Shown here piece after piece: positions 645 to 25,901 of a stretch of DNA of 27,432 nucleotides (position 1 is its first letter; each line of letters starts with the position of its first letter). Source of the stretch: a virus. Taxonomy: Duplodnaviria; Heunggongvirae; Uroviricota; Caudoviricetes. The stretch lies in IMG/VR virus record IMGVR_UViG_2695420763_000018; one strand, written 5' to 3'. The notes beneath the pieces were generated by a model. The model saw only the letters and a list, made by a program, of their open reading frames with translations. It was not told where the DNA came from and searched no databases. A program made the position numbers and the translations under genes.

Positions 645-1955
645 TTAAATCCGAAGTGATGTGACTCTTCCGGTCGGTTTGACAATAGGGAATTGTTTAA
701 CGATGAAATAACCTCCGGCATCATTCGGGTGATCATTGCCAGATTTTTTATCAGGCTCCCCCTTCTCATCCCAGACCTGTTGCTCCAGAGATTCGGCATA
801 TAACGGGCAACGCTTCACATTAACTTTATAGCGACGCTCACCATTGGCATTGCAGAACATTGCATTCATTGAGTTAACGCGATCTTTTACTGGCGGGTTC
901 GAGCTGTTCACCACAACGTTAAAACCAGCCTGCTTAAGCTGGGCTATATCCGTCGTACTTGCGTTACTTGATTTTCTGGAATCCCCGGAAGCATCTGGAT
1001 AAATATAAATTTCCCTCACTTTCCGGTAATCATTCCCATCATACAGCCAGAAGCGTTCTTTAATGATGCGGATCATATCCGGCGTATCGTAGGCATTGAT
1101 GATTTCAGTTACCGCACATGGAAGCCCCAAACGCAGCACATGGACGATTCCCGCCATCTTTCCAACGTTAAAATCCATCCCAATATAAATCGGCTCCCCT
1201 GGCTGCTCCACTTCTTCGCAATTATTCAGTTTCCGGTCAAACTGATGGTAAACAGTACCACTTGTCAGGTTAGTAAACTGTCCTCGAAGATAGGCTTTAA
1301 TCAGCTCTGGAGGGTATGATTCAAGAAGCGAAGGAATGTAATCTGCTGGCAGGTTCTTTTCATTATCGAAAGTAGATGCCTGCACCAGACCATACAGTGA
1401 GGCCAGCTCTGTTTTTTCACGCACGGCTTTAACAAACTGCTCGTAGACAAATTTGAATCCTTCCGGCGTGGTTGTAACGTCAATACCGTTGCGAAGTCCA
1501 TCAATCTTATAACGCATACGTGCAATTATCTTGCGCCACGCCGTTCTGGCTTTTTCCTTCGGCAAAATGTCCAGTTCATCCACCAACGCATTACCAATTT
1601 TGAAACCGACGATCGTTTGTGGCTTCTCCATCGATCTGCAGATAGTGGTTCCCCGATACTGGCGTCCGTAATAAAAGTGAACCTCTTTATTTCCCTCATT
1701 AATTTTTACGTTCAATCCCCAGTCAGCAGCAACTTCTTCCACTGTAGGGTAAAAAATATCGCGAATTTGGGGATACGTTGGCGCAAAATATCCCTGATTT
1801 ATACCTGGATGCTCCCAAATCCCCTTGCATATGCCGCCACACCCAACCCATGTTTTGCCCGAGCCAAAACCAGCAATATAGGCTTTAAATTTATGGGGCA
1901 TTGAAAGAAATCGCGCCTGAGGCACATTAAGCGTCGGAGAGATCATCTTCATCAC
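645..1955 (-). CDS. terminase large subunit (ATPase/nuclease)
   Basis: 436-aa ORF with Walker A-like motif GFGSGKTW near the N-terminus and acidic motifs further on; overlaps the upstream small-subunit gene by about 29 nt. Exact start among the MMKM codons is uncertain. Confidence 0.8.
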   Translation of the reverse strand: MMKMISPTLNVPQARFLSMPHKFKAYIAGFGSGKTWVGCGGICKGIWEHPGINQGYFAPTYPQIRDIFYPTVEEVAADWGLNVKINEGNKEVHFYYGRQYRGTTICRSMEKPQTIVGFKIGNALVDELDILPKEKARTAWRKIIARMRYKIDGLRNGIDVTTTPEGFKFVYEQFVKAVREKTELASLYGLVQASTFDNEKNLPADYIPSLLESYPPELIKAYLRGQFTNLTSGTVYHQFDRKLNNCEEVEQPGEPIYIGMDFNVGKMAGIVHVLRLGLPCAVTEIINAYDTPDMIRIIKERFWLYDGNDYRKVREIYIYPDASGDSRKSSNASTTDIAQLKQAGFNVVVNSSNPPVKDRVNSMNAMFCNANGERRYKVNVKRCPLYAESLEQQVWDEKGEPDKKSGNDHPNDAGGYFIVKQFPIVKPTGRVTSLRI

Positions 1956-3021
1956 TCCTTACTCTGGCATCAACCACATTAATATTGATCGCCACAGGCT
2001 GGGGATGTTCATTATCTTCCACCGTTTCGATCTCTTTGCGCAGCTTCTGGTTTTCCATTCTGCGCCGTTCAATTTCCAGTTCCTGTAGCCGTTTATCTGC
2101 ACATAAAGCCCCGCCAGCAGAAAACAAACGCAACAATTCACGCCGGGCGGCAGCCTTATCCTCCAGCAGGATCTCAACGCCGAATTTTCCGAATTTTGCC
2201 CCTGCATATAATTGCCGCGCATCCCCATCAAGCAGAGTGGTATCAGCCATATAAAGCTGTCCCGTTCCCTCACCGCAGCACTTCGGGCAGTCCGGATTGG
2301 GTATGGCGTTATCAACAAAGCCGAGGCCTCCATATTCCGGTTCGGGTTTGCCATCTCTGGAAGCCTGCGCCGCTGCCTTGTCGAATTCTGCTATATCGCG
2401 CCACTGGTAGAGATGATTCTCGCCCCAGCAATAACGGCAGTTAACACGGCGAAATTGTGCAAGCTGATTGGGGTCGGCCAGGACAATAGCCATCAACTGA
2501 CTCACTAGTAAATCCAGGTCTGCGGTATAGCGTTTCTGGTACTGATTGCGGAAGTAGCTGATAGCGCGAAAAACCCTGGCATTTCTAAGCATACGACTGG
2601 CGTTGCTGTTAGCTGTCGCACCTTGCCCCTCATAACCGGCTAGTCGGTACGCCTCTGTCGGCTTTTTACCCTGAGCAACAAGCATCGCAAACTTAGCCTG
2701 CTGGTCAGAAATGCCGAATTCATCGGGACAGAACGAAAATTCCTCCGCGTCGCCCTCATTCAGGCCCGCATCGAATACTGGCTTTTTTTCCTGAGATTTT
2801 TCGTTCCGCTTTTGTGCAGTCTGCGCAGATTTTTTCTGCGCACTTTTTTGCGCAGTTTTGCACATTTCTGTCTGCGCATTTTTCGGAGTTTTTTTGATGT
2901 AACGACGGGCTGTTGCGTAATTCAGTCCCCTTGCTTCACACCATGCCACCGGAGATATACCGGAGCGGGTGTATTCAGCAATATACTCCTGCTGCAACGC
3001 CCCCCAGTCCGGTCTGCTCAT
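1927..3021 (-). CDS. terminase small subunit, unusually long (364 aa), with N-terminal HTH-like region and Cys-rich C-terminal region
   Basis: Central segment QQAKFAMLVAQGKKPTEAYRLAGYEGQGATANSNASRMLRN matches my recollection of the P27/Terminase_2 small-subunit signature; Cys cluster CRYCW...CPKCCGEG suggests a zinc ribbon; lies directly upstream of TerL. Confidence 0.6.
   Translation of the reverse strand: MSRPDWGALQQEYIAEYTRSGISPVAWCEARGLNYATARRYIKKTPKNAQTEMCKTAQKSAQKKSAQTAQKRNEKSQEKKPVFDAGLNEGDAEEFSFCPDEFGISDQQAKFAMLVAQGKKPTEAYRLAGYEGQGATANSNASRMLRNARVFRAISYFRNQYQKRYTADLDLLVSQLMAIVLADPNQLAQFRRVNCRYCWGENHLYQWRDIAEFDKAAAQASRDGKPEPEYGGLGFVDNAIPNPDCPKCCGEGTGQLYMADTTLLDGDARQLYAGAKFGKFGVEILLEDKAAARRELLRLFSAGGALCADKRLQELEIERRRMENQKLRKEIETVEDNEHPQPVAININVVDARVRSDEDDLSDA
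2813..2877. repeat. cluster of about six T-rich/GCGCA direct repeats inside the small terminase gene (candidate pac site)
   Basis: Plus strand reads tgtgcag, ctgcgcag, tctgcgcac, ttgcgcag, ttgcaca, tctgcgca within about 65 bp; encodes the low-complexity AQK-rich segment of TerS. Confidence 0.35.
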
Positions 3022-3024
3022 CAG

Positions 3025-3276
3025 TTAGTCCTGATTTTTATCCACCCTGAGTAGTTCGCGCAGAGCAAAGGCATCCCCTTTTCTGGCAAGCTTAAACAAT
3101 GCCGCTCGTAACTCGGCTTCACCCTTCGCTCTGCCCTTACGGATGGCCGCATAAAAATCTGTCATTGCTTCCCGATTTTCTTTCAGTCGGTTCAGATCAA
3201 CATCCAGAACGTCAGCGATTTGTTGTGCAGTCATCCGGCACGCTGCCAGAGACTCGACTTTCGAATACGGAATCAT
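3025..3276 (-). CDS. hypothetical small protein (83 aa), possible HTH DNA-binding protein
   Basis: ORF between the 402-aa gene and TerS; segment MTAQQIADVLDVDLNRL is HTH-like. Overlaps the stop of the upstream gene, so the start is uncertain. Confidence 0.4.
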   Translation of the reverse strand: MIPYSKVESLAACRMTAQQIADVLDVDLNRLKENREAMTDFYAAIRKGRAKGEAELRAALFKLARKGDAFALRELLRVDKNQD

Positions 3277-4420
3277 TTGTCACCCCCATTGATATGCAGG
3301 GTGTCTTCTTCCTGTATTTTTCGTGAAGGATTTTTACTGCAGCGTTGTTCCAGGTGACCTGATGGTGAATGCGTTTATGGCTGGCACCCATCAGTGAGAT
3401 TTTTACGCACGACGGCGCATACATGACGGAGTAAAAACTTTTAACGTAGGTTCCGGAATCCAAATACAGCTCGGTCATTCCGCCGCTGTTTTTCTGCGTC
3501 TGTTTCTGCCCTAACTGGACAGCACCGATCGTCATAAACAATTCACCACAGCGACCGAGATTCGTGTACGTATTCACATCCTCGTTAATGCGCCCCATGA
3601 ATGAGAACGGTCGATCAACCGAACAGATAAAGCTGTTCATTGCCTTGCGTTTCACCCACGAAGCATGGCCGCCATTGTCACCAAGAAAATCCCCGCCCTG
3701 CGACATAGCGATGGAAAGAGCAGGTATTGATTCGTAGTACGCCAGCATTTCAGAAAGGATCGCATCCAGTTTCCTTATCGGAAAATAGGCCTGGTCATAG
3801 TTGCGATCCACCCGAAACTGGAACTCGTGATAATCATCATCGAGCTGAATGAAGTATTTACACCCGACCAGTTTTGCCTGGTCGAAACAGGCATTACGGG
3901 CGTAAAAAATTGAGCGGCGGTCACAGAAATTATCGGCTTCGTCAAAACGACTGGCGATATCGGCTTTGGAAAACACCAGCACCTGTTCACCAAATTCAGC
4001 CATGTACTGATGCCGTGTCTTATCTTCATCATCAACAACGATAAAAATTTTCCCGGTATAGCCAGCACGACGCAACGTCCGGTAAGTCAGAACTTTGTCC
4101 GGTCGCCCGTGAGTCAGAATAAAGGCGCAAAAATCATCACGCATATTCTCCTCCTCACCACCATGCATGATCTCCACCATGCGCTGCGTCATCCGGACAA
4201 ATCCATTTTCAATAGCCTGCTGATAATCAATGATCACCAGCGCCGACTCCTCGAAAAAACACTGAATTTCAGCGGGGGCGTGAGCGTAATAGTCCGCAAT
4301 TCTGCTGAAATTAAACACCGTGTGACGTTCTGCCGCACACAGGAGGAATTTCTCAATATCAGGCTCAAGGGACGCCGAACGTATCCGGCTCCTCCTCATT
4401 TCCTGTACCGGGCAAAACAT
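3212..4420 (-). CDS. hypothetical protein with GT-A-like glycosyltransferase motif spacing (function unassigned)
   Basis: 402-aa ORF; segments THGRPDK, then VVDDED about 25 aa later, then QLDDDY about 55 aa later, resemble the GT-A nucleotide-sugar transferase pattern. No hydrophobic transmembrane-length segment seen. Start uncertain because the first 56 nt overlap the ParB-like gene. Confidence 0.5.
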   Translation of the reverse strand: MFCPVQEMRRSRIRSASLEPDIEKFLLCAAERHTVFNFSRIADYYAHAPAEIQCFFEESALVIIDYQQAIENGFVRMTQRMVEIMHGGEEENMRDDFCAFILTHGRPDKVLTYRTLRRAGYTGKIFIVVDDEDKTRHQYMAEFGEQVLVFSKADIASRFDEADNFCDRRSIFYARNACFDQAKLVGCKYFIQLDDDYHEFQFRVDRNYDQAYFPIRKLDAILSEMLAYYESIPALSIAMSQGGDFLGDNGGHASWVKRKAMNSFICSVDRPFSFMGRINEDVNTYTNLGRCGELFMTIGAVQLGQKQTQKNSGGMTELYLDSGTYVKSFYSVMYAPSCVKISLMGASHKRIHHQVTWNNAAVKILHEKYRKKTPCISMGVTNDSVFESRVSGSVPDDCTTNR

Positions 4421-4826
4421 CCGTCAACAGTTCATCAATTTCTGTCGGGATGAAGCCTGTCAGGGAGACATCAAAATCAGCATTGATTAGGTCCGACAGC
4501 TCCATCCGCAACAGATCTTCATCCCAGCCAGCATTCATCGGCAGGCGATTATCTGCCAGGCGGTACGCCTTTTTCTGCTCATCCGTCAGGCCAGACAGAA
4601 CAATGACCGGAACAGAATCCATTTTGAGCATTTCAGCCGCCATAACACGACCGTGACCCGCAATAATTTCGCCCTTTTCGTCAATCAGCACCGGATTAGT
4701 CCAGCCGAATTGCTTAATACTTTCTACCAGTTGTGCCACCTGCTCAGTACTGTGCGTCCTGGCGTTGTGCGCATTCGGTGACAATTCTTGTAATGGGCGA
4801 TAGACTATCTTTAATTTCTCGCTCAT
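4365..4826 (-). CDS. ParB-like nuclease-domain protein
   Basis: 153-aa ORF with ParB N-terminal-domain-like segment NPVLIDEKGEIIAGHGRVMAA. Sits at the position where I recall the short ynaK/ydaY remnants of K-12 Rac. Confidence 0.7.
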   Translation of the reverse strand: MSEKLKIVYRPLQELSPNAHNARTHSTEQVAQLVESIKQFGWTNPVLIDEKGEIIAGHGRVMAAEMLKMDSVPVIVLSGLTDEQKKAYRLADNRLPMNAGWDEDLLRMELSDLINADFDVSLTGFIPTEIDELLTDVLPGTGNEEEPDTFGVP

Positions 4827-4963: not shown

Positions 4964-6439
4964 TTAGGAGCGCCAAAAAAAACCTGAAAACAATATAATA
5001 ACAGGATAAATTTCAAGGCGACCAAGAATCATAGCTATGCACATTAAACATTTTGCAATGTCATTAAGCACTCCGAATGACGATGCAGTAGCCCCAAAAC
5101 CTAATCCCATATTATTAATACATGCAGCCACTGTTGCAAATGATGTAAGAAAATCATATCCCATACCATTTAACACCAGTATAAAAAACACCGTGAAGAG
5201 AGTATAAAGAAAAAAGAAACTCCATACAGACCTCATTACACGATCTGTAACTATCTTCCCTCCTACATTTACACTCAACAACGCTCTGGGATGAGAAAGC
5301 TGATTTATCTCGTGTTTGCTTTGTTTGAAAAGTATAAGAAATCGAAGTGACTTAATTCCACCACAAGTTGAACCTATACATCCCCCAAAGAAACTTGACA
5401 ACAGCAAAAACACTATCGTGTGCGTGGGCCAACTTGCATAATCCTGCGTAGCTAAACCATTATCAGTGAGCATGGAGCTGGCAAGAAAAAACGAATGAAT
5501 AAAACTTCCATGCAAGTCATACATACCTATATGCCAGACCTGGAAAGAGGTAACAATGATCACCCCTAAGGCTATTAACAGAAAGAAACGAAGTTCAATA
5601 TCTCTGATTAAAGGTTTTATCGTTTTCCTGCTAATAACAATATACCAAAGAGTGAAGTTGAAAGCCGATAGCAGGGAAAAAGAACCAGCCACCAGCTCAA
5701 CCAAATAGTTATTAAAATATCCGATACTCTCGCTATGAGTTGAGAAACCACCAAGCGAAACTGTGGAAATCCCGTGACAAATAGCATCAAACAAAGGCAT
5801 TCCTGCAAGTCTATAACAGACAATACAAGCAATACCTAATAAAGAATAAGTTATCCACAGTGTCCGTGACGTATCGGCCAGGCGGGGAGTGAGTTTGTCA
5901 TCCTTAAATGGCCCCGGCATTTCTGACTGATAAAGCTTTGCACCACCAATACCCAATAATGGCAATACAGCAACCGCCAGAACAATAACTCCTAAACCAC
6001 CTATAAAATTTAACTGTGACCGATAGTACAAATATGCCCGAGGTAATGAACTAACATCATCAATTACAGTTGCTCCTGTTGTTGTTATTCCAGAAACCCC
6101 TTCAAACAGAGCATCAATGAACGTTAAATTAAGTTCTGAGTCAATCCATAAAGGGAATGCACTAATAACAGAAAACAAAATCCAAAACATTACAATTATA
6201 ATAAACCCATCACGGGTACGTAATTGAATGCCAGATTTCTTAGTTGTATACCACGCTCCGCCACCAATGCAAAAAAATATAACGAAAGTTATAAAGAAAA
6301 CGAACAGGCTTTTTTCTTTATAAAACAATGCTACAACCATTGGTGGCAACATTGAAAGACTATAGAGCCAAACCAGGAACCCACACATATGAGTAACAAC
6401 TCTTACATGAGATGTATTCATATCTAAATATTCTTTCAA
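4964..6439 (-). CDS. trkG: Trk-system K+ uptake protein TrkG
   Basis: 491-aa polytopic membrane protein with repeated GxGxxG-like pore segments, recognised as TrkG of Rac; gene and flanks are visibly AT-rich relative to the surrounding phage genes. Confidence 0.9.
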   Translation of the reverse strand: MKEYLDMNTSHVRVVTHMCGFLVWLYSLSMLPPMVVALFYKEKSLFVFFITFVIFFCIGGGAWYTTKKSGIQLRTRDGFIIIVMFWILFSVISAFPLWIDSELNLTFIDALFEGVSGITTTGATVIDDVSSLPRAYLYYRSQLNFIGGLGVIVLAVAVLPLLGIGGAKLYQSEMPGPFKDDKLTPRLADTSRTLWITYSLLGIACIVCYRLAGMPLFDAICHGISTVSLGGFSTHSESIGYFNNYLVELVAGSFSLLSAFNFTLWYIVISRKTIKPLIRDIELRFFLLIALGVIIVTSFQVWHIGMYDLHGSFIHSFFLASSMLTDNGLATQDYASWPTHTIVFLLLSSFFGGCIGSTCGGIKSLRFLILFKQSKHEINQLSHPRALLSVNVGGKIVTDRVMRSVWSFFFLYTLFTVFFILVLNGMGYDFLTSFATVAACINNMGLGFGATASSFGVLNDIAKCLMCIAMILGRLEIYPVIILFSGFFWRS

Positions 6440-8958: not shown

Positions 8959-9534
8959 TTTTCCTCACATATGTCATATAGTAAAGGATTATATATACCG
9001 TTGTTTTGGACGCTCAAACAGCGAATCAGATCAAATAAAACGCACATTTGTTAACATTTACACAAAGTCTGCGTGGGATATTCTGAAAGAATATCCATAA
9101 TGTGGAGAGAATCTATTGAAGTGCATGGTGCCGGGTGCCTCCCGGTGAACAAAATGTTCGTGATACCTGTCGGCGACAGAAAAGGTTAATGGTATCACCC
9201 CACCGCACAGGGGGATTCACCATGCAGGAGTTTTCTTAGCAAACTCACTGCGCGCCCGGCAACTCCCAACCACATAAAATGCGGAGTTTGTGGCATTTGT
9301 GCATATAACTCGCAGGAATTATCTTAAAAAACTGATGTCGATCCGGATTAAAAAGAAGCAGGTCATCATCAGATGACTGGAAAAAAGGAAAACAAAAAAT
9401 ACTCATCATACAGTTTTGATTGCAGGGATGAGCCTGCTATGCACAATATAAGCAAGATAAAAATATGCAGGCATATTATTTCGGATTTTGTTATTAACAC
9501 AACCTTTTTAATAATCATTTGGCATACAATAAAC

Positions 9535-13273: not shown

Positions 13274-13399
13274 TCACAGCCTCCGTCTGCCAGTTCGGAT
13301 TCGTACCTCGCAGAGGTCTTTCCTCGTTACCAGTGCCGTCACTATGACGGTTAAACAGATGACGATCAGGGCGATTAACATCGCCTTTTGCTGCTTCAT
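13274..13399 (-). CDS. hok: Hok-family type I toxin homologue with divergent, shortened C-terminus (41 codons); possibly decayed
   Basis: Product MKQQKAMLIALIVICLTVIVTALVTRKDLCEVRIRTG matches the RelF/HokD N-terminal 37 residues as I recall them, then reads RRRL-stop where canonical Hok continues QTEVAVF...; AGGAG SD upstream; a 19-codon upstream ORF ends on ATGA at the hok start (mok-like coupling). Confidence 0.6.
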   Translation of the reverse strand: MKQQKAMLIALIVICLTVIVTALVTRKDLCEVRIRTGRRRL

Positions 13400-13921
13400 A
13401 GCCTGCTTCTCCTTGACCTTTCGGTCCGTAAGAGGCTAATCTCTATGTGTCGCATAGATATGGCCTCAGATTAATGTTAAACGTCTTGCAGGACGCGTAA
13501 TGTTAACTGGGGCTTTTCTCTATCTACCTTTGGTGTTCATGCCCGAGGCAGATAGCCTCAAGCACCCACAGCAATTCTAACTATCCAATACATCACTGCC
13601 AACACTTTAAACTCTTACCCTTTAAAACAAGAACAAAATTCAACCAATCAGCATTGGGCGTATACTCATATCCTAGAGAAAACAACTCTTTCTGTACTAT
13701 TTATATCCATATGATTTATAAGCATTTGCCACTTGCCATAGCCGCACAATGACAGTTTGCCATTTGATGTCAATAGATAAAAATGATCGTTTTCAATGAG
13801 TTACATACTTGCAAGGCGTTGCACATCAGGCCCGATTACGTCAGTATCAAAAGATTACAGATGGTGCATTACTGCCACCTCGCCTTAATGTTCCAGAACT
13901 CTCCAACTTGAGGAATTTTCA

Positions 13922-25504: not shown

Positions 25505-25699
25505 ATGAGATATGACAATGTTAAACCATGTCCATTTTGTGGTTGTCCATCAGTAACGGTGAAAGCCATTTCAGGATATTACCGAGCGAAGTGTAACGGA
25601 TGCGAATCCCGAACCGGTTATGGTGGAAGTGAAAAAGAAGCACTCGAAAGATGGAATAAACGAACCACTGGAAATAATAATGGAGGTATTCATGTATAA
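25505..25699 (+). CDS. ralR: RalR (Lar), restriction alleviation protein and type I TA toxin
   Basis: 64 aa from MRYDNVKPCPFCGCPSVTVKAISGYYRAKCNGCES...; zinc-ribbon-like Cys pairs. Confidence 0.85.
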   Translation: MRYDNVKPCPFCGCPSVTVKAISGYYRAKCNGCESRTGYGGSEKEALERWNKRTTGNNNGGIHV

Positions 25700-25901
25700 A
25701 ATTACCGCCACTATTGAAAAGGAAGGTGGCACTCCTACTAACTGGACAAGATATTCAAAATCTAAACTAACGAAATCAGAATGCGAAAAAATGCTCTCAG
25801 GTAAAAAAGAAGCAGGCGTTTCCAGAGAGCAGAAAGTAAAACTGATAAATTTTAATTGCGAGAAACTTCAGTCCTCGAGAATTGCATTGTATTCAAATTA
25901 A
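25692..25901 (+). CDS. ydaC: YdaC
   Basis: 69 aa from MYKITATIEKEGG...; GGAGGT SD; its ATG overlaps the ralR stop region. Confidence 0.75.
   Translation: MYKITATIEKEGGTPTNWTRYSKSKLTKSECEKMLSGKKEAGVSREQKVKLINFNCEKLQSSRIALYSN

What the first reader, a model, noticed from the sequence alone, without database searches (positions are those of the whole stretch)
2813..2877. Direct-repeat cluster inside the small terminase gene: candidate pac site
About six T-rich/GCGCA repeats lie within 65 bp in the 5' third of TerS. From what I recall, pac sites of headful-packaging phages such as P22 and SPP1 lie within or next to the small terminase gene and are built from short repeats. The same bases encode an AQK-rich stretch, so this may only be coding low complexity.
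Basis: inference. Interest (0 to 1): 0.45.

Follow-up and report, generated by a model that had tools for sequence, protein, structure and literature searches.

The report
Terminase recognition-site array inside terS
Inside the small-terminase gene of a Rac-like E. coli prophage lies a cluster of six TGCGCA hexamers that is conserved as DNA rather than as protein and that changes together with one residue of the terminase's own DNA-binding helix, so it is most likely the site where this phage's packaging enzyme recognises its genome.

Summary
Window 2813-2878 holds four exact copies of the palindromic hexamer TGCGCA and two one-mismatch copies. All six are exact in the consensus of close relatives.

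The cluster sits in the minus-strand small terminase gene (TerS, 1927-3021). It lies directly after an extra N-terminal helix-turn-helix (HTH) domain, in codons for a disordered linker.

It is not just AQK-rich coding:
- Synonymous resampling of the same peptide gives four or more copies with P = 1.3e-4.
- In 99 unique homologues the hexamer is kept in all three reading frames (xAQ, [LMV]R[TKNS], CA).
- 91% of linker xA[QH] tripeptides use NNT-GCG, against 33% elsewhere in the same genes.

The motif co-varies with one residue of the predicted recognition helix. R39 goes with TGCGCA in 98 of 98 cases and K39 with TGCGAA(TTCGCA) in 12 of 12. DNA-first scans of IMG/VR confirmed this: 73 of 73 R and 98 of 98 K. 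A second TerS N-domain family shows the same layout with GGTNNCCA motifs.

Best reading, at about 0.7: a cognate TerS binding-site array that forms the recognition part of a headful pac site, closest in concept to the P1 pac hexamers. Packaging initiation itself is untested. I found no prior description.

The parts
1927..3021 (-). Small terminase gene (TerS, 364 aa)
   Evidence: ORF. Pfam Terminase_2 on aa 122-321 (E 3.7e-8). PHROG 51 terminase small subunit (E 1.7e-75). Annotated as terminase small subunit in near-identical phage and E. coli records.
2890..3021 (-). Codons for the extra N-terminal three-helix HTH-like domain (aa 1-44). Predicted recognition helix is aa 35-41 (YATARRY), with the specificity residue R39.
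2813..2878 (.). The six-site TGCGCA array, proposed as the TerS recognition part of pac
2873..2878 (.). Site 1, exact TGCGCA (gene nt 144-149; codons AAT GCG CAG = NAQ)
2859..2864 (.). Site 2, degenerate (coding strand TGTGCA; ATG TGC AAA = MCK). Relatives have ATG CGC AAA = MRK, an exact site in another reading frame.
2849..2854 (.). Site 3, exact TGCGCA (ACT GCG CAA = TAQ)
2837..2842 (.). Site 4, exact TGCGCA (AGT GCG CAG = SAQ)
2822..2827 (.). Site 5, exact TGCGCA (TCT GCG CAG = SAQ)
2813..2818 (.). Site 6, degenerate (coding strand TGCACA; ACT GCA CAA = TAQ). It differs by a synonymous GCG>GCA change from the family consensus.
2728..2889 (-). Codons for the disordered linker (aa 45-98) between the N-terminal HTH and the Terminase_2 core. 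The array occupies its first half.
   Evidence: AF2 full-length model: pLDDT below 50 for aa 45-94. Linker sequence and length vary widely among homologues.
2059..2727 (-). Terminase_2 core (aa 99-321), including a second, canonical TerS HTH region (aa ~105-160)
   Evidence: Pfam. pLDDT 77-90 for aa 100-160. Weak match of aa 108-158 to the Pam5 small terminase chain 21di_E.
645..1955 (-). Large terminase (TerL, 436 aa), overlapping the TerS 3' end
   Evidence: Pfam Terminase_6N (3.7e-33) and Terminase_6C. Homologues are 40-51% identical in Kagunavirus, Jerseyvirus and Dhillonvirus siphophages.

Best explanation
The cluster is an array of cognate binding sites for the N-terminal helix-turn-helix domain of the small terminase that is encoded immediately upstream in the same gene. 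It is the sequence-specific recognition part of the pac site of a headful-packaging Rac-like prophage.

Proposed mechanism:
- TerS assembles into a ring through its Terminase_2 core.
- The extra N-terminal HTH domains are tethered by about 50 disordered residues. Each docks on a TGCGCA hexamer, with helix 3 in the major groove.
- Residue 39 reads position 5 of the hexamer: Arg with the C:G pair, Lys with A:T.
- Four to six closely spaced sites (7-16 bp apart, flanked by A-tracts) give avidity and load the ring on phage DNA.
- TerL is then recruited to make the first cut nearby, and headful packaging proceeds.

Shown here: the sites are selected at the DNA level, they are tightly localised, and they co-vary with residue 39.

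Inferred: that TerS physically binds them, that residue 39 contacts position 5, and that binding initiates packaging.
For: 1. Chance is excluded. Four exact copies in 57 bp against 15 in 27.4 kb.
2. DNA-level selection in the window itself. Resampling synonymous codons for the same peptide gives four or more TGCGCA in 13 of 100,000 trials.
3. Conservation across reading frames. In 99 unique R39 homologues the hexamer is read as xAQ/xAH (386 times), [LMV]R[TKNS] (94) and CA (16). Klebsiella phages that are 39% identical in protein have six copies in three frames.
4. Codon skew. 386 of 425 linker xA[QH] tripeptides use NNT-GCG, against 96 of 289 elsewhere in the same genes (Fisher 8e-61).
5. Localisation. 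491 of 682 TGCGCA found within -600 to +1500 nt of the start codon fall in gene nt 100-249.
6. Covariation. R39 goes with TGCGCA arrays in 98 of 98 and K39 with TGCGAA/TTCGCA arrays in 12 of 12. K and R domains are otherwise interleaved: L034 (K) is 34 of 34 identical to L014 (R) over aa 1-34.
7. DNA-first confirmation. Triple TGCGCA arrays in IMG/VR lie next to this domain in 76 of the first 120 hits, and all 73 scorable ones are R39. All 99 TGCGAATTCGCA-type arrays in IMG/VR lie next to it: 98 are K39 and one is cut by the locus end.
8. Fold. The N-domain is predicted as a three-helix HTH with residue 39 in helix 3. The linker is predicted to be disordered.
9. Generality. A second TerS N-domain family has GGTAACCA, GGTTTCCA, GGTTACCA or GGTTGCCA arrays at the same position. 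These are also kept across frames and co-vary with helix residues.
10. Site decay. Rac-SA53, whose N-domain was lost by deletion, keeps two exact sites, and three others each carry one mutation.
11. Precedent. pac lies inside terS in P22, and in P1 it consists of hexamer repeats inside pacA (PMC9611059, PMC10028697).
Against: - No experimental or read-based evidence of TerS binding, of cleavage or of packaging start was available.
- The TerL relatives' packaging mode was not verified here.
- Within the close E. coli subgroup, site columns are not measurably less variable than inter-site columns (p = 1.0).
- The window's own allele has lost two of six sites, so not every site is essential.
- No IHF-like site and no second flanking cluster occur in the window, unlike P1.
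- In the best-studied Terminase_2-type TerS (SF6/SPP1), the HTH shows no in vitro specificity for pac repeats (PMC4737164).
- The covariation counts are not phylogenetically independent events, although the interleaving of K and R backgrounds argues for several switches or exchanges.
Confidence: 0.7

Rival explanations
1. Autoregulatory operator. The TerS N-terminal HTH does bind the array, but the purpose is feedback control of terS/terL expression (a transcriptional roadblock or cis-acting control) rather than packaging recognition.
For: It explains the same DNA-level conservation and the R39/K39 covariation, because those results show only that the HTH and the sites are coupled. The sites lie inside the transcribed late operon.
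Against: No promoter-like site was found around the array. Operators are normally at promoters, not 140 nt inside a coding region of a long late operon. Four to nine reiterated sites fit a ring-shaped multimer better than a repressor dimer. The protein is a bona fide terminase small subunit, whose known job is DNA recognition for packaging (PMC9611059).
Confidence: 0.1
2. The sites are read by some other factor, such as a host nucleoid protein, a DNA methyltransferase or restriction system targeting TGCGCA, or the 83-aa TerS-like ORF just upstream. On this reading the TerS HTH is not the reader.
For: TGCGCA is a palindrome of the kind recognised by type II enzymes, and P1 pac hexamers are methylation targets (PMC10028697). 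An 83-aa ORF with a TerS-like PHROG hit sits directly upstream.
Against: The motif changes with one residue of the adjacent HTH, even between otherwise identical domains. The 83-aa ORF is present only in the E. coli-type loci (31 of 111) and is absent from 80 loci that still have arrays. Arrays occur in at least 20 genera with different hosts. There is no GATC in the array.
Confidence: 0.07
3. A nucleic-acid structure element. The palindromes form hairpins that act as intrinsic terminators for antisense transcription, or as an mRNA structure that modulates terS translation.
For: The RNA of the array folds at -29.8 kcal/mol against -17.1 for shuffles (z = -4.5). On the antisense (+) strand, two hairpin-plus-T-run terminator-like sites lie at 2811-2829 and 2822-2842. 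Such antisense hairpins occur in 86 of 98 R-class homologues.
Against: Hairpins follow automatically from palindromic hexamers 9-14 nt apart, and the T-runs from Lys codons. Only 3 of 12 K-class arrays have them. The second family uses mostly direct repeats. Structure cannot explain why TGCGCA becomes TGCGAA exactly when R39 becomes K39.
Confidence: 0.05
4. Coding low complexity only. An AQK-rich flexible linker arose by duplication of a short DNA unit, and the repeated hexamer is inherited codon choice with no DNA-level function.
For: The stretch does encode a repetitive, predicted-disordered peptide. Tandem Repeats Finder sees 12-15 nt units. Unrelated proteins with AAQ or GAQ repeats also produce TGCGCA arrays.
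Against: The hexamer is conserved in three reading frames while the peptide is not. Codon skew is extreme. The motif co-varies perfectly with residue 39.
Confidence: 0.03

Closest known systems
Bacteriophage P1 pac site (hexamers TGATCA/G within pacA)
   Same: Reiterated 6-bp, largely palindromic motifs lie inside the coding sequence of the DNA-recognition subunit of the packaging enzyme. Synonymous mutation of the hexamers lowers phage packaging (PMC10028697).
   Different: P1 has seven hexamers in two clusters (HEX4 and HEX3) flanking the cleavage site, an IHF site, and Dam (GATC) methylation control. The window has one cluster, no GATC and no IHF-like consensus. I saw no similarity to PacA, but I did not compare the two directly; TerS here is a Terminase_2 protein with an extra HTH.
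Lambda and phage 21 cosB R-sites read by the gpNu1 winged HTH (from my own knowledge of the Feiss and Catalano literature)
   Same: Several copies of a short site are read by the N-terminal HTH of TerS. Packaging specificity differs between related phages through changes in the recognition helix and matching changes in the sites.
   Different: cosB lies outside and upstream of Nu1, works with IHF and a cos nick site, and serves unit-length packaging. Here the sites are inside the gene, after the HTH codons. The terminase resembles those of siphophage groups I believe to be headful packagers (packaging mode not verified here).
SPP1/SF6 pac (boxA, boxB and boxC repeats; G1P, the archetypal Terminase_2-type TerS)
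   Same: The TerS core family appears to be the same: the Pfam Terminase_2 match is, while G1P's membership of that family is from my own knowledge and was not tested. The pac region spans the 5' part of the TerS gene and contains repeats. A-tracts are interspersed with GC steps, which is proposed to favour wrapping around the ring (PMC4737164).
   Different: In SF6 the HTH shows no in vitro sequence preference for the boxes (PMC4737164). Here an additional N-terminal HTH, absent from G1P, co-varies with a sharply defined hexamer, which implies base-specific readout.
P22 pac (22-bp asymmetric site inside gene 3)
   Same: pac is embedded in terS, and a wobble-mutant strategy is available (PMC11260489, PMC9611059).
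   Different: P22 has a single asymmetric site, not a repeat array. Its TerS fold is unrelated.

Membership tests
pac site of a headful-packaging phage | Cis-acting sequence required for initiation of packaging, with the first terminase cut nearby | not testable with these tools
   Needs virion DNA ends or read-start data, or genetics. None was available.
pac site of a headful-packaging phage | Located in or next to the small terminase gene | tested here: met
   The array is at nt 144-209 of TerS.
pac site of a headful-packaging phage | Specifically recognised by the cognate TerS | tested here: inconclusive
   No binding assay was possible. Indirect support is strong: the motif co-varies perfectly with residue 39 of the adjacent TerS HTH.
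pac site of a headful-packaging phage | Terminase of headful (not cos) type | tested here: inconclusive
   TerL is Terminase_6N/6C. Its nearest named relatives are Kagunavirus, Jerseyvirus and Dhillonvirus siphophages, which I recall as circularly permuted headful packagers. This was not verified here.
P1-type pac (Dam-regulated hexamer clusters) | Hexamers contain GATC, and methylation controls cleavage | tested here: not met
   No GATC in 2780-2900. The motif is TGCGCA.
P1-type pac (Dam-regulated hexamer clusters) | Two hexamer clusters flanking a central cleavage region, with an IHF site | tested here: not met
   The window has a single cluster and no WATCAANNNNTTR match in 2600-3150. The Klebsiella-type homologues do have a second cluster at gene nt 300-400.
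Lambda-type cosB | R-sites lie upstream of the TerS gene, next to cosN | tested here: not met
   Only 13 TGCGCA occur in the 600 nt upstream of 99 homologous genes, against 491 inside nt 100-249.
Terminase_2 (PF03592) small terminase | Match to the family profile above the gathering score | tested here: met
   34.5 bits against a cut-off of 26.1, aa 122-321. Homologues all carry PF03592.
Helix-turn-helix DNA-binding domain (N-terminal aa 1-44) | Three-helix bundle with helix 2-turn-helix 3 geometry, and similarity to known HTH domains | tested here: inconclusive

The most novel reading that the evidence does not exclude
Large TerS families of enterobacterial and other proteobacterial temperate phages carry a portable 'specificity cassette'. 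It consists of an accessory N-terminal HTH followed immediately, in the codons of its own disordered linker, by the array of sites that this HTH reads. Protein and target are therefore inherited and exchanged as one unit. Packaging specificity can be reprogrammed by a single helix residue (R39/K39 matched with TGCGCA/TGCGAA; HATIL, HTAIN, HVGIT and HQAIS matched with GGTAACCA, GGTTTCCA, GGTTACCA and GGTTGCCA). This would let pac sites be read directly from sequence for thousands of prophages.
Probability: 0.55. Interest if true: 0.7.

Novelty: new member of a known kind. Interest (0 to 1): 0.6.

Why it matters
How small terminases pick out viral DNA is still unclear. The review read here says that pac binding has been weak or non-specific in vitro for P22, Sf6, SF6 and SPP1 (PMC9611059, PMC4737164).

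This family offers a sharply defined hexamer, a one-residue specificity switch and natural swap variants. That makes the question directly testable by EMSA, by wobble mutants and by R39K with site swaps.

The prophage is common: its TerS 5' region occurs in 883 of 5,426 complete E. coli genomes. Knowing its pac site and orientation would predict which chromosomal flank is moved by lateral transduction. It would also allow the design of packageable plasmids (phagemids) for E. coli, Klebsiella, Enterobacter and related hosts.

Tried and rejected
- Column variability within 27 close E. coli-type sequences showed no difference between site and non-site columns (p = 1.0). This was uninformative because divergence is low and an indel variant adds noise.
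- Sequence searches of the N-domain against PDB (single sequence and 26-sequence profile) and Pfam found nothing significant.
- The full-length AF2 model, built on a shallow alignment (23 sequences, at least 82% identical), had mean pLDDT 49.7. Foldseek against PDB gave no hit with E <= 0.001.
- Literature searches for TGCGCA with terminase, for Rac-SA53, for covariation between TerS and its own-gene binding sites, and for E. coli pac motifs found no description of this element. The library holds open-access papers only, so absence is weak evidence.
- No IHF consensus and no GATC were found in or near the array.
- A viral-contig scan for the pPE4-type N-domain as a single sequence returned only one identical locus. 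An alignment-based scan was needed instead.
- The upstream 83-aa ORF was rejected as the reader of the sites, because it is absent from 80 of 111 loci that have arrays.
- The + strand ORF 2812-3054 (80 aa) is an antisense artefact of the repeat.

Full report
**Setting.** The window is a Rac-like lambdoid prophage of E. coli.
- Rfam finds the Rac hallmark sRNA RalA at 25698-25876, plus sok and STnc100.
- A trkG-like ORF (4964-6439) and a ParB_N ORF (4365-4826) sit between the lysis genes and the packaging genes. I recall that Rac carries trkG and ynaK in the same arrangement.
- Phage Rac-SA53 is a partial homologue.
- The finding lies in the minus-strand gene 1927-3021 (364 aa). This gene is a small terminase: Pfam Terminase_2 on aa 122-321 and PHROG 51.
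- It is followed by TerL (645-1955; Terminase_6N/6C) and a portal fragment.
- The 5' part of this gene occurs in 883 of 5,426 complete E. coli genomes.

**The observation.** On the + strand, exact TGCGCA starts at 2822, 2837, 2849 and 2873.
- One-mismatch copies lie at 2813 and 2859.
- The hexamer is its own reverse complement.
- The window holds 15 copies in all. Four within 60 nt has Poisson P = 1.4e-8, or about 4e-4 over all positions.
- On the coding strand the stretch reads AAT GCG CAG ... ATG TGC AAA ACT GCG CAA AAA AGT GCG CAG AAA AAA TCT GCG CAG ACT GCA CAA. This translates to NAQTEMCKTAQKSAQKKSAQTAQ.
- In the consensus of 27 close relatives all six sites are exact, at gene nt 144, 158, 168, 180, 195 and 204. 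The window's allele has lost site 2 (ATG CGC AAA to ATG TGC AAA, R to C) and site 6 (GCG to GCA, synonymous).

**Is it only coding low complexity? No.**
- Keeping the peptide and resampling synonymous codons from the window's own usage gives four or more TGCGCA in 13 of 100,000 trials.
- Klebsiella prophages whose TerS is only about 39% identical have six TGCGCA at the same place, in three reading frames: ACT GCG CAA, C TGC GCA C (= LRT) and TGC GCA (= CA).
- I fetched 160 loci that encode the N-terminal domain, 80 from species-representative genomes of more than 20 genera and 80 from IMG/VR. They gave 120 unique sequences.
- In the 99 intact R39-class genes, every one has 3-9 TGCGCA in gene nt 115-264. 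The frames are xT GCG CAx (386), xTG CGC Axx (94) and TGC GCA (16).
- 386 of 425 linker xA[QH] tripeptides are encoded NNT-GCG, against 96 of 289 in the rest of the same genes (Fisher 8e-61).
- Of 682 TGCGCA found between -600 and +1500 of the start codons, 491 lie in nt 100-249 and only 13 in the 600 nt upstream.
- The peptide itself is poorly conserved and varies in length. AF2 predicts aa 45-94 to be disordered (pLDDT below 50).
- The conserved entity is therefore the DNA hexamer. The linker peptide appears free to accommodate it.

**What reads it?** The array starts within a few codons of the end of a conserved 44-aa domain, M..PDWG...SP..WCEA.GLNY.TA[RK]RYIK.
- The domain has no significant Pfam or PDB sequence match.
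- Residue 39 sits in helix 3.
- All 98 sequences with R39, and the one with H39, carry TGCGCA arrays. All 12 with K39 carry none. Instead they have 4-7 copies of TGCGAA(T)/ATTCGCA, often as the 12-bp palindrome TGCGAATTCGCA, again in several frames.
- The two classes are not separate clades of the domain. L034 (K) is 34 of 34 identical to L014 (R) over aa 1-34, and L008 (K) is 33 of 34 identical to L046 (R). Position 39 is the only perfectly discriminating residue.
- The motifs differ at position 5: C with Arg, A with Lys. This fits, but does not prove, an Arg contact to the guanine opposite C5.

**DNA-first controls.**
- I scanned IMG/VR (2.9 million contigs) for TGCGCA-N1-10-TGCGCA-N1-10-TGCGCA. 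Of the first 120 loci, 73 lay directly 3' of this domain and 3 more were cut by a locus end. All 73 scorable ones had R39.
- The remaining hits were tandem-repeat proteins (AAQ, AAHD and GAQ repeats) or GC-rich chance matches. Two were TerS genes of another HTH class.
- I scanned for TGCGAATTCGCA followed by two TGCGAA. This returned 99 loci in the whole collection. 98 lay next to a K39 domain and one was cut by the locus end. None had R39.

**Generality.** TerS genes with a different N-terminal HTH (..DWE.I...YRAG..S.R.I....GV.H..I.KR..KEGW; Pfam HTH_50 for one member) show the same layout.
- Three or four copies of an 8-mer lie just after the HTH, partly inverted and in different frames.
- The 8-mer co-varies with helix residues in 69 unique sequences:
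  - HATILKR with GGTAACCA (read as VT or GNQ)
  - HT[AT]IN[NK]R with GGTTTCCA (VS or GFQ)
  - HVGI[TN]KR with GGTTACCA (VT or GYQ)
  - HQAISKR with GGTTGCCA (VA)
- C-terminal TerS cores differ within each motif class, with lengths of 180-260 or 320-365 aa. So the HTH plus its array travels as a module.
- In Rac-SA53, a deletion removed the N-domain (annotated as a gpO-terS fusion). There two sites remain exact and three carry one mutation each. This is anecdotal but fits relaxed selection.

**Most likely mechanism.**
- TerS has two DNA-binding regions: the accessory N-terminal HTH, and the canonical Terminase_2 HTH (aa ~105-160, pLDDT 77-90).
- I propose that the ring formed by the core displays several tethered N-domains. 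These dock on the reiterated hexamers, which are spaced 7-16 bp apart with modes at 9, 12 and 14.
- This gives specificity by avidity. The core then engages flanking DNA non-specifically, as described for SF6 (PMC4737164), and TerL cuts nearby.
- A-tracts alternating with GCGC resemble the bendable pattern noted for SPP1 pac (PMC4737164).
- Shown: DNA-level selection, localisation, and covariation with residue 39.
- Inferred: binding, the residue-to-base contact, and packaging initiation.
- TerL's nearest named relatives are Kagunavirus, Jerseyvirus and Dhillonvirus siphophages. I recall these as headful packagers, but this was not verified here.

**Rivals.**
- An autoregulatory operator explains the coupling equally well. 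However, the position (no promoter-like site) and the multiplicity of sites fit it poorly.
- A different reader is unlikely given the one-residue covariation. The upstream 83-aa TerS-like ORF is absent from 80 of 111 loci with arrays.
- Hairpin or antisense-terminator function: the RNA folds with z = -4.5. Terminator-like sites occur on the + strand at 2811-2829 and 2822-2842, and such sites are present in 86 of 98 R-class genes. But they follow automatically from palindromes plus Lys codons. They occur in only 3 of 12 K-class arrays and cannot explain the covariation.
- Pure low complexity is contradicted by the evidence above.

**Comparison with known systems.**
- The closest analogue is P1 pac: seven TGATCA/G hexamers inside pacA, whose synonymous mutation lowers packaging (PMC10028697). 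Unlike P1, this array has no GATC, no IHF-like site and, in the window, a single cluster. Klebsiella-type genes do have a second cluster at nt 300-400.
- Lambda and phage 21 cosB R-sites share the logic of a TerS HTH reading reiterated sites with helix-determined specificity, but they lie outside the gene and serve cos packaging. This is from my own knowledge.
- P22 pac is a single 22-bp site in gene 3 (PMC9611059).
- I found no paper describing this motif or this TerS N-domain. The search covered an open-access library only.

**Verdict.** This is a real, non-random, DNA-level element. It is most likely the TerS recognition array of the prophage's pac site (confidence about 0.7). It is a new member of a known kind, and it comes with an unusually clean protein-DNA covariation that makes TerS specificity experimentally tractable.

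Noticed in passing
window 3025-3276 (-): An 83-aa ORF directly upstream of TerS matches only the middle of a terminase-small-subunit PHROG (phrog_309, positions 145-218 of 319, E 8e-23). Its 3' end overlaps the TAGT ORF. It is conserved 100% in E. coli-type loci but absent from other genera. It could be a TerS fragment or an accessory packaging protein.
   Followed up: partly
window 3212-4420 (-) and 4365-4826 (-): A TET-associated glycosyltransferase family protein (Pfam TAGT, E 2.9e-34) overlaps a ParB_N-domain protein, and both sit between trkG and the terminase genes. This may be a DNA-modification module in a Rac-like prophage. No TET/JBP partner was looked for.
   Followed up: no
window 4964-6439 (-): A 491-aa, multi-pass-looking ORF sits between the lysis cassette and the packaging genes. 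By sequence appearance it is a TrkG/TrkH-like potassium transporter. This is consistent with the Rac identity.
   Followed up: no
window 25698-25876 (-), 13397-13567 (-), 9069-9255 (-): Rfam hits above gathering score: RalA (RalR antitoxin sRNA, 225 bits), sok antitoxin (101 bits) and STnc100 (87 bits). These are two toxin-antitoxin sRNAs and one sRNA in the prophage.
   Followed up: no
L004, L005, L007 gene nt 348-400 (Klebsiella phage TerS); histogram: Klebsiella-type TerS genes carry a second cluster of 2-3 TGCGCA about 170-200 bp downstream of the main array, in codons VAQAIAQQQKA of the Terminase_2 HTH region. This resembles the two-cluster layouts of P1 (HEX4/HEX3) and SPP1 (pacL/pacR). 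The window lacks it.
   Followed up: partly
L146, L058, L052, L027, L071, L128: Several homologues have truncated or frameshifted TerS ORFs (57-102 aa) but still carry 4-7 copies of their class motif (TGCGCA, or TGCGAA in the K39-class L052). In L146 the whole array is read in the CA frame (KKCAERNAQNCAKKCAKKNCADCAK). These may be pseudogenes, sequencing errors or programmed frameshifts at the A-runs.
   Followed up: no
L255, L276: Two TerS genes of the other N-terminal HTH class (..DWE...R.KA.Q..W.RDL) carry TGCGCA triplets read as LRK/LRT/LRS or VRK/VRS/VRT. This suggests independent use of the same hexamer by a different HTH class.
   Followed up: no
window 2780-2900, coding strand: Runs of 6-7 A (for example ATC AAA AAA ACT, CAG AAA AAA TCT, GAA AAA AAG) flank the sites. 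These are potential transcriptional or translational slippage sites in the linker.
   Followed up: no
P0006, P0025, P0033: Some database proteins fuse this TerS to a tail-fibre domain or to the TAGT domain (565-616 aa). These are probably gene-calling or assembly artefacts.
   Followed up: no
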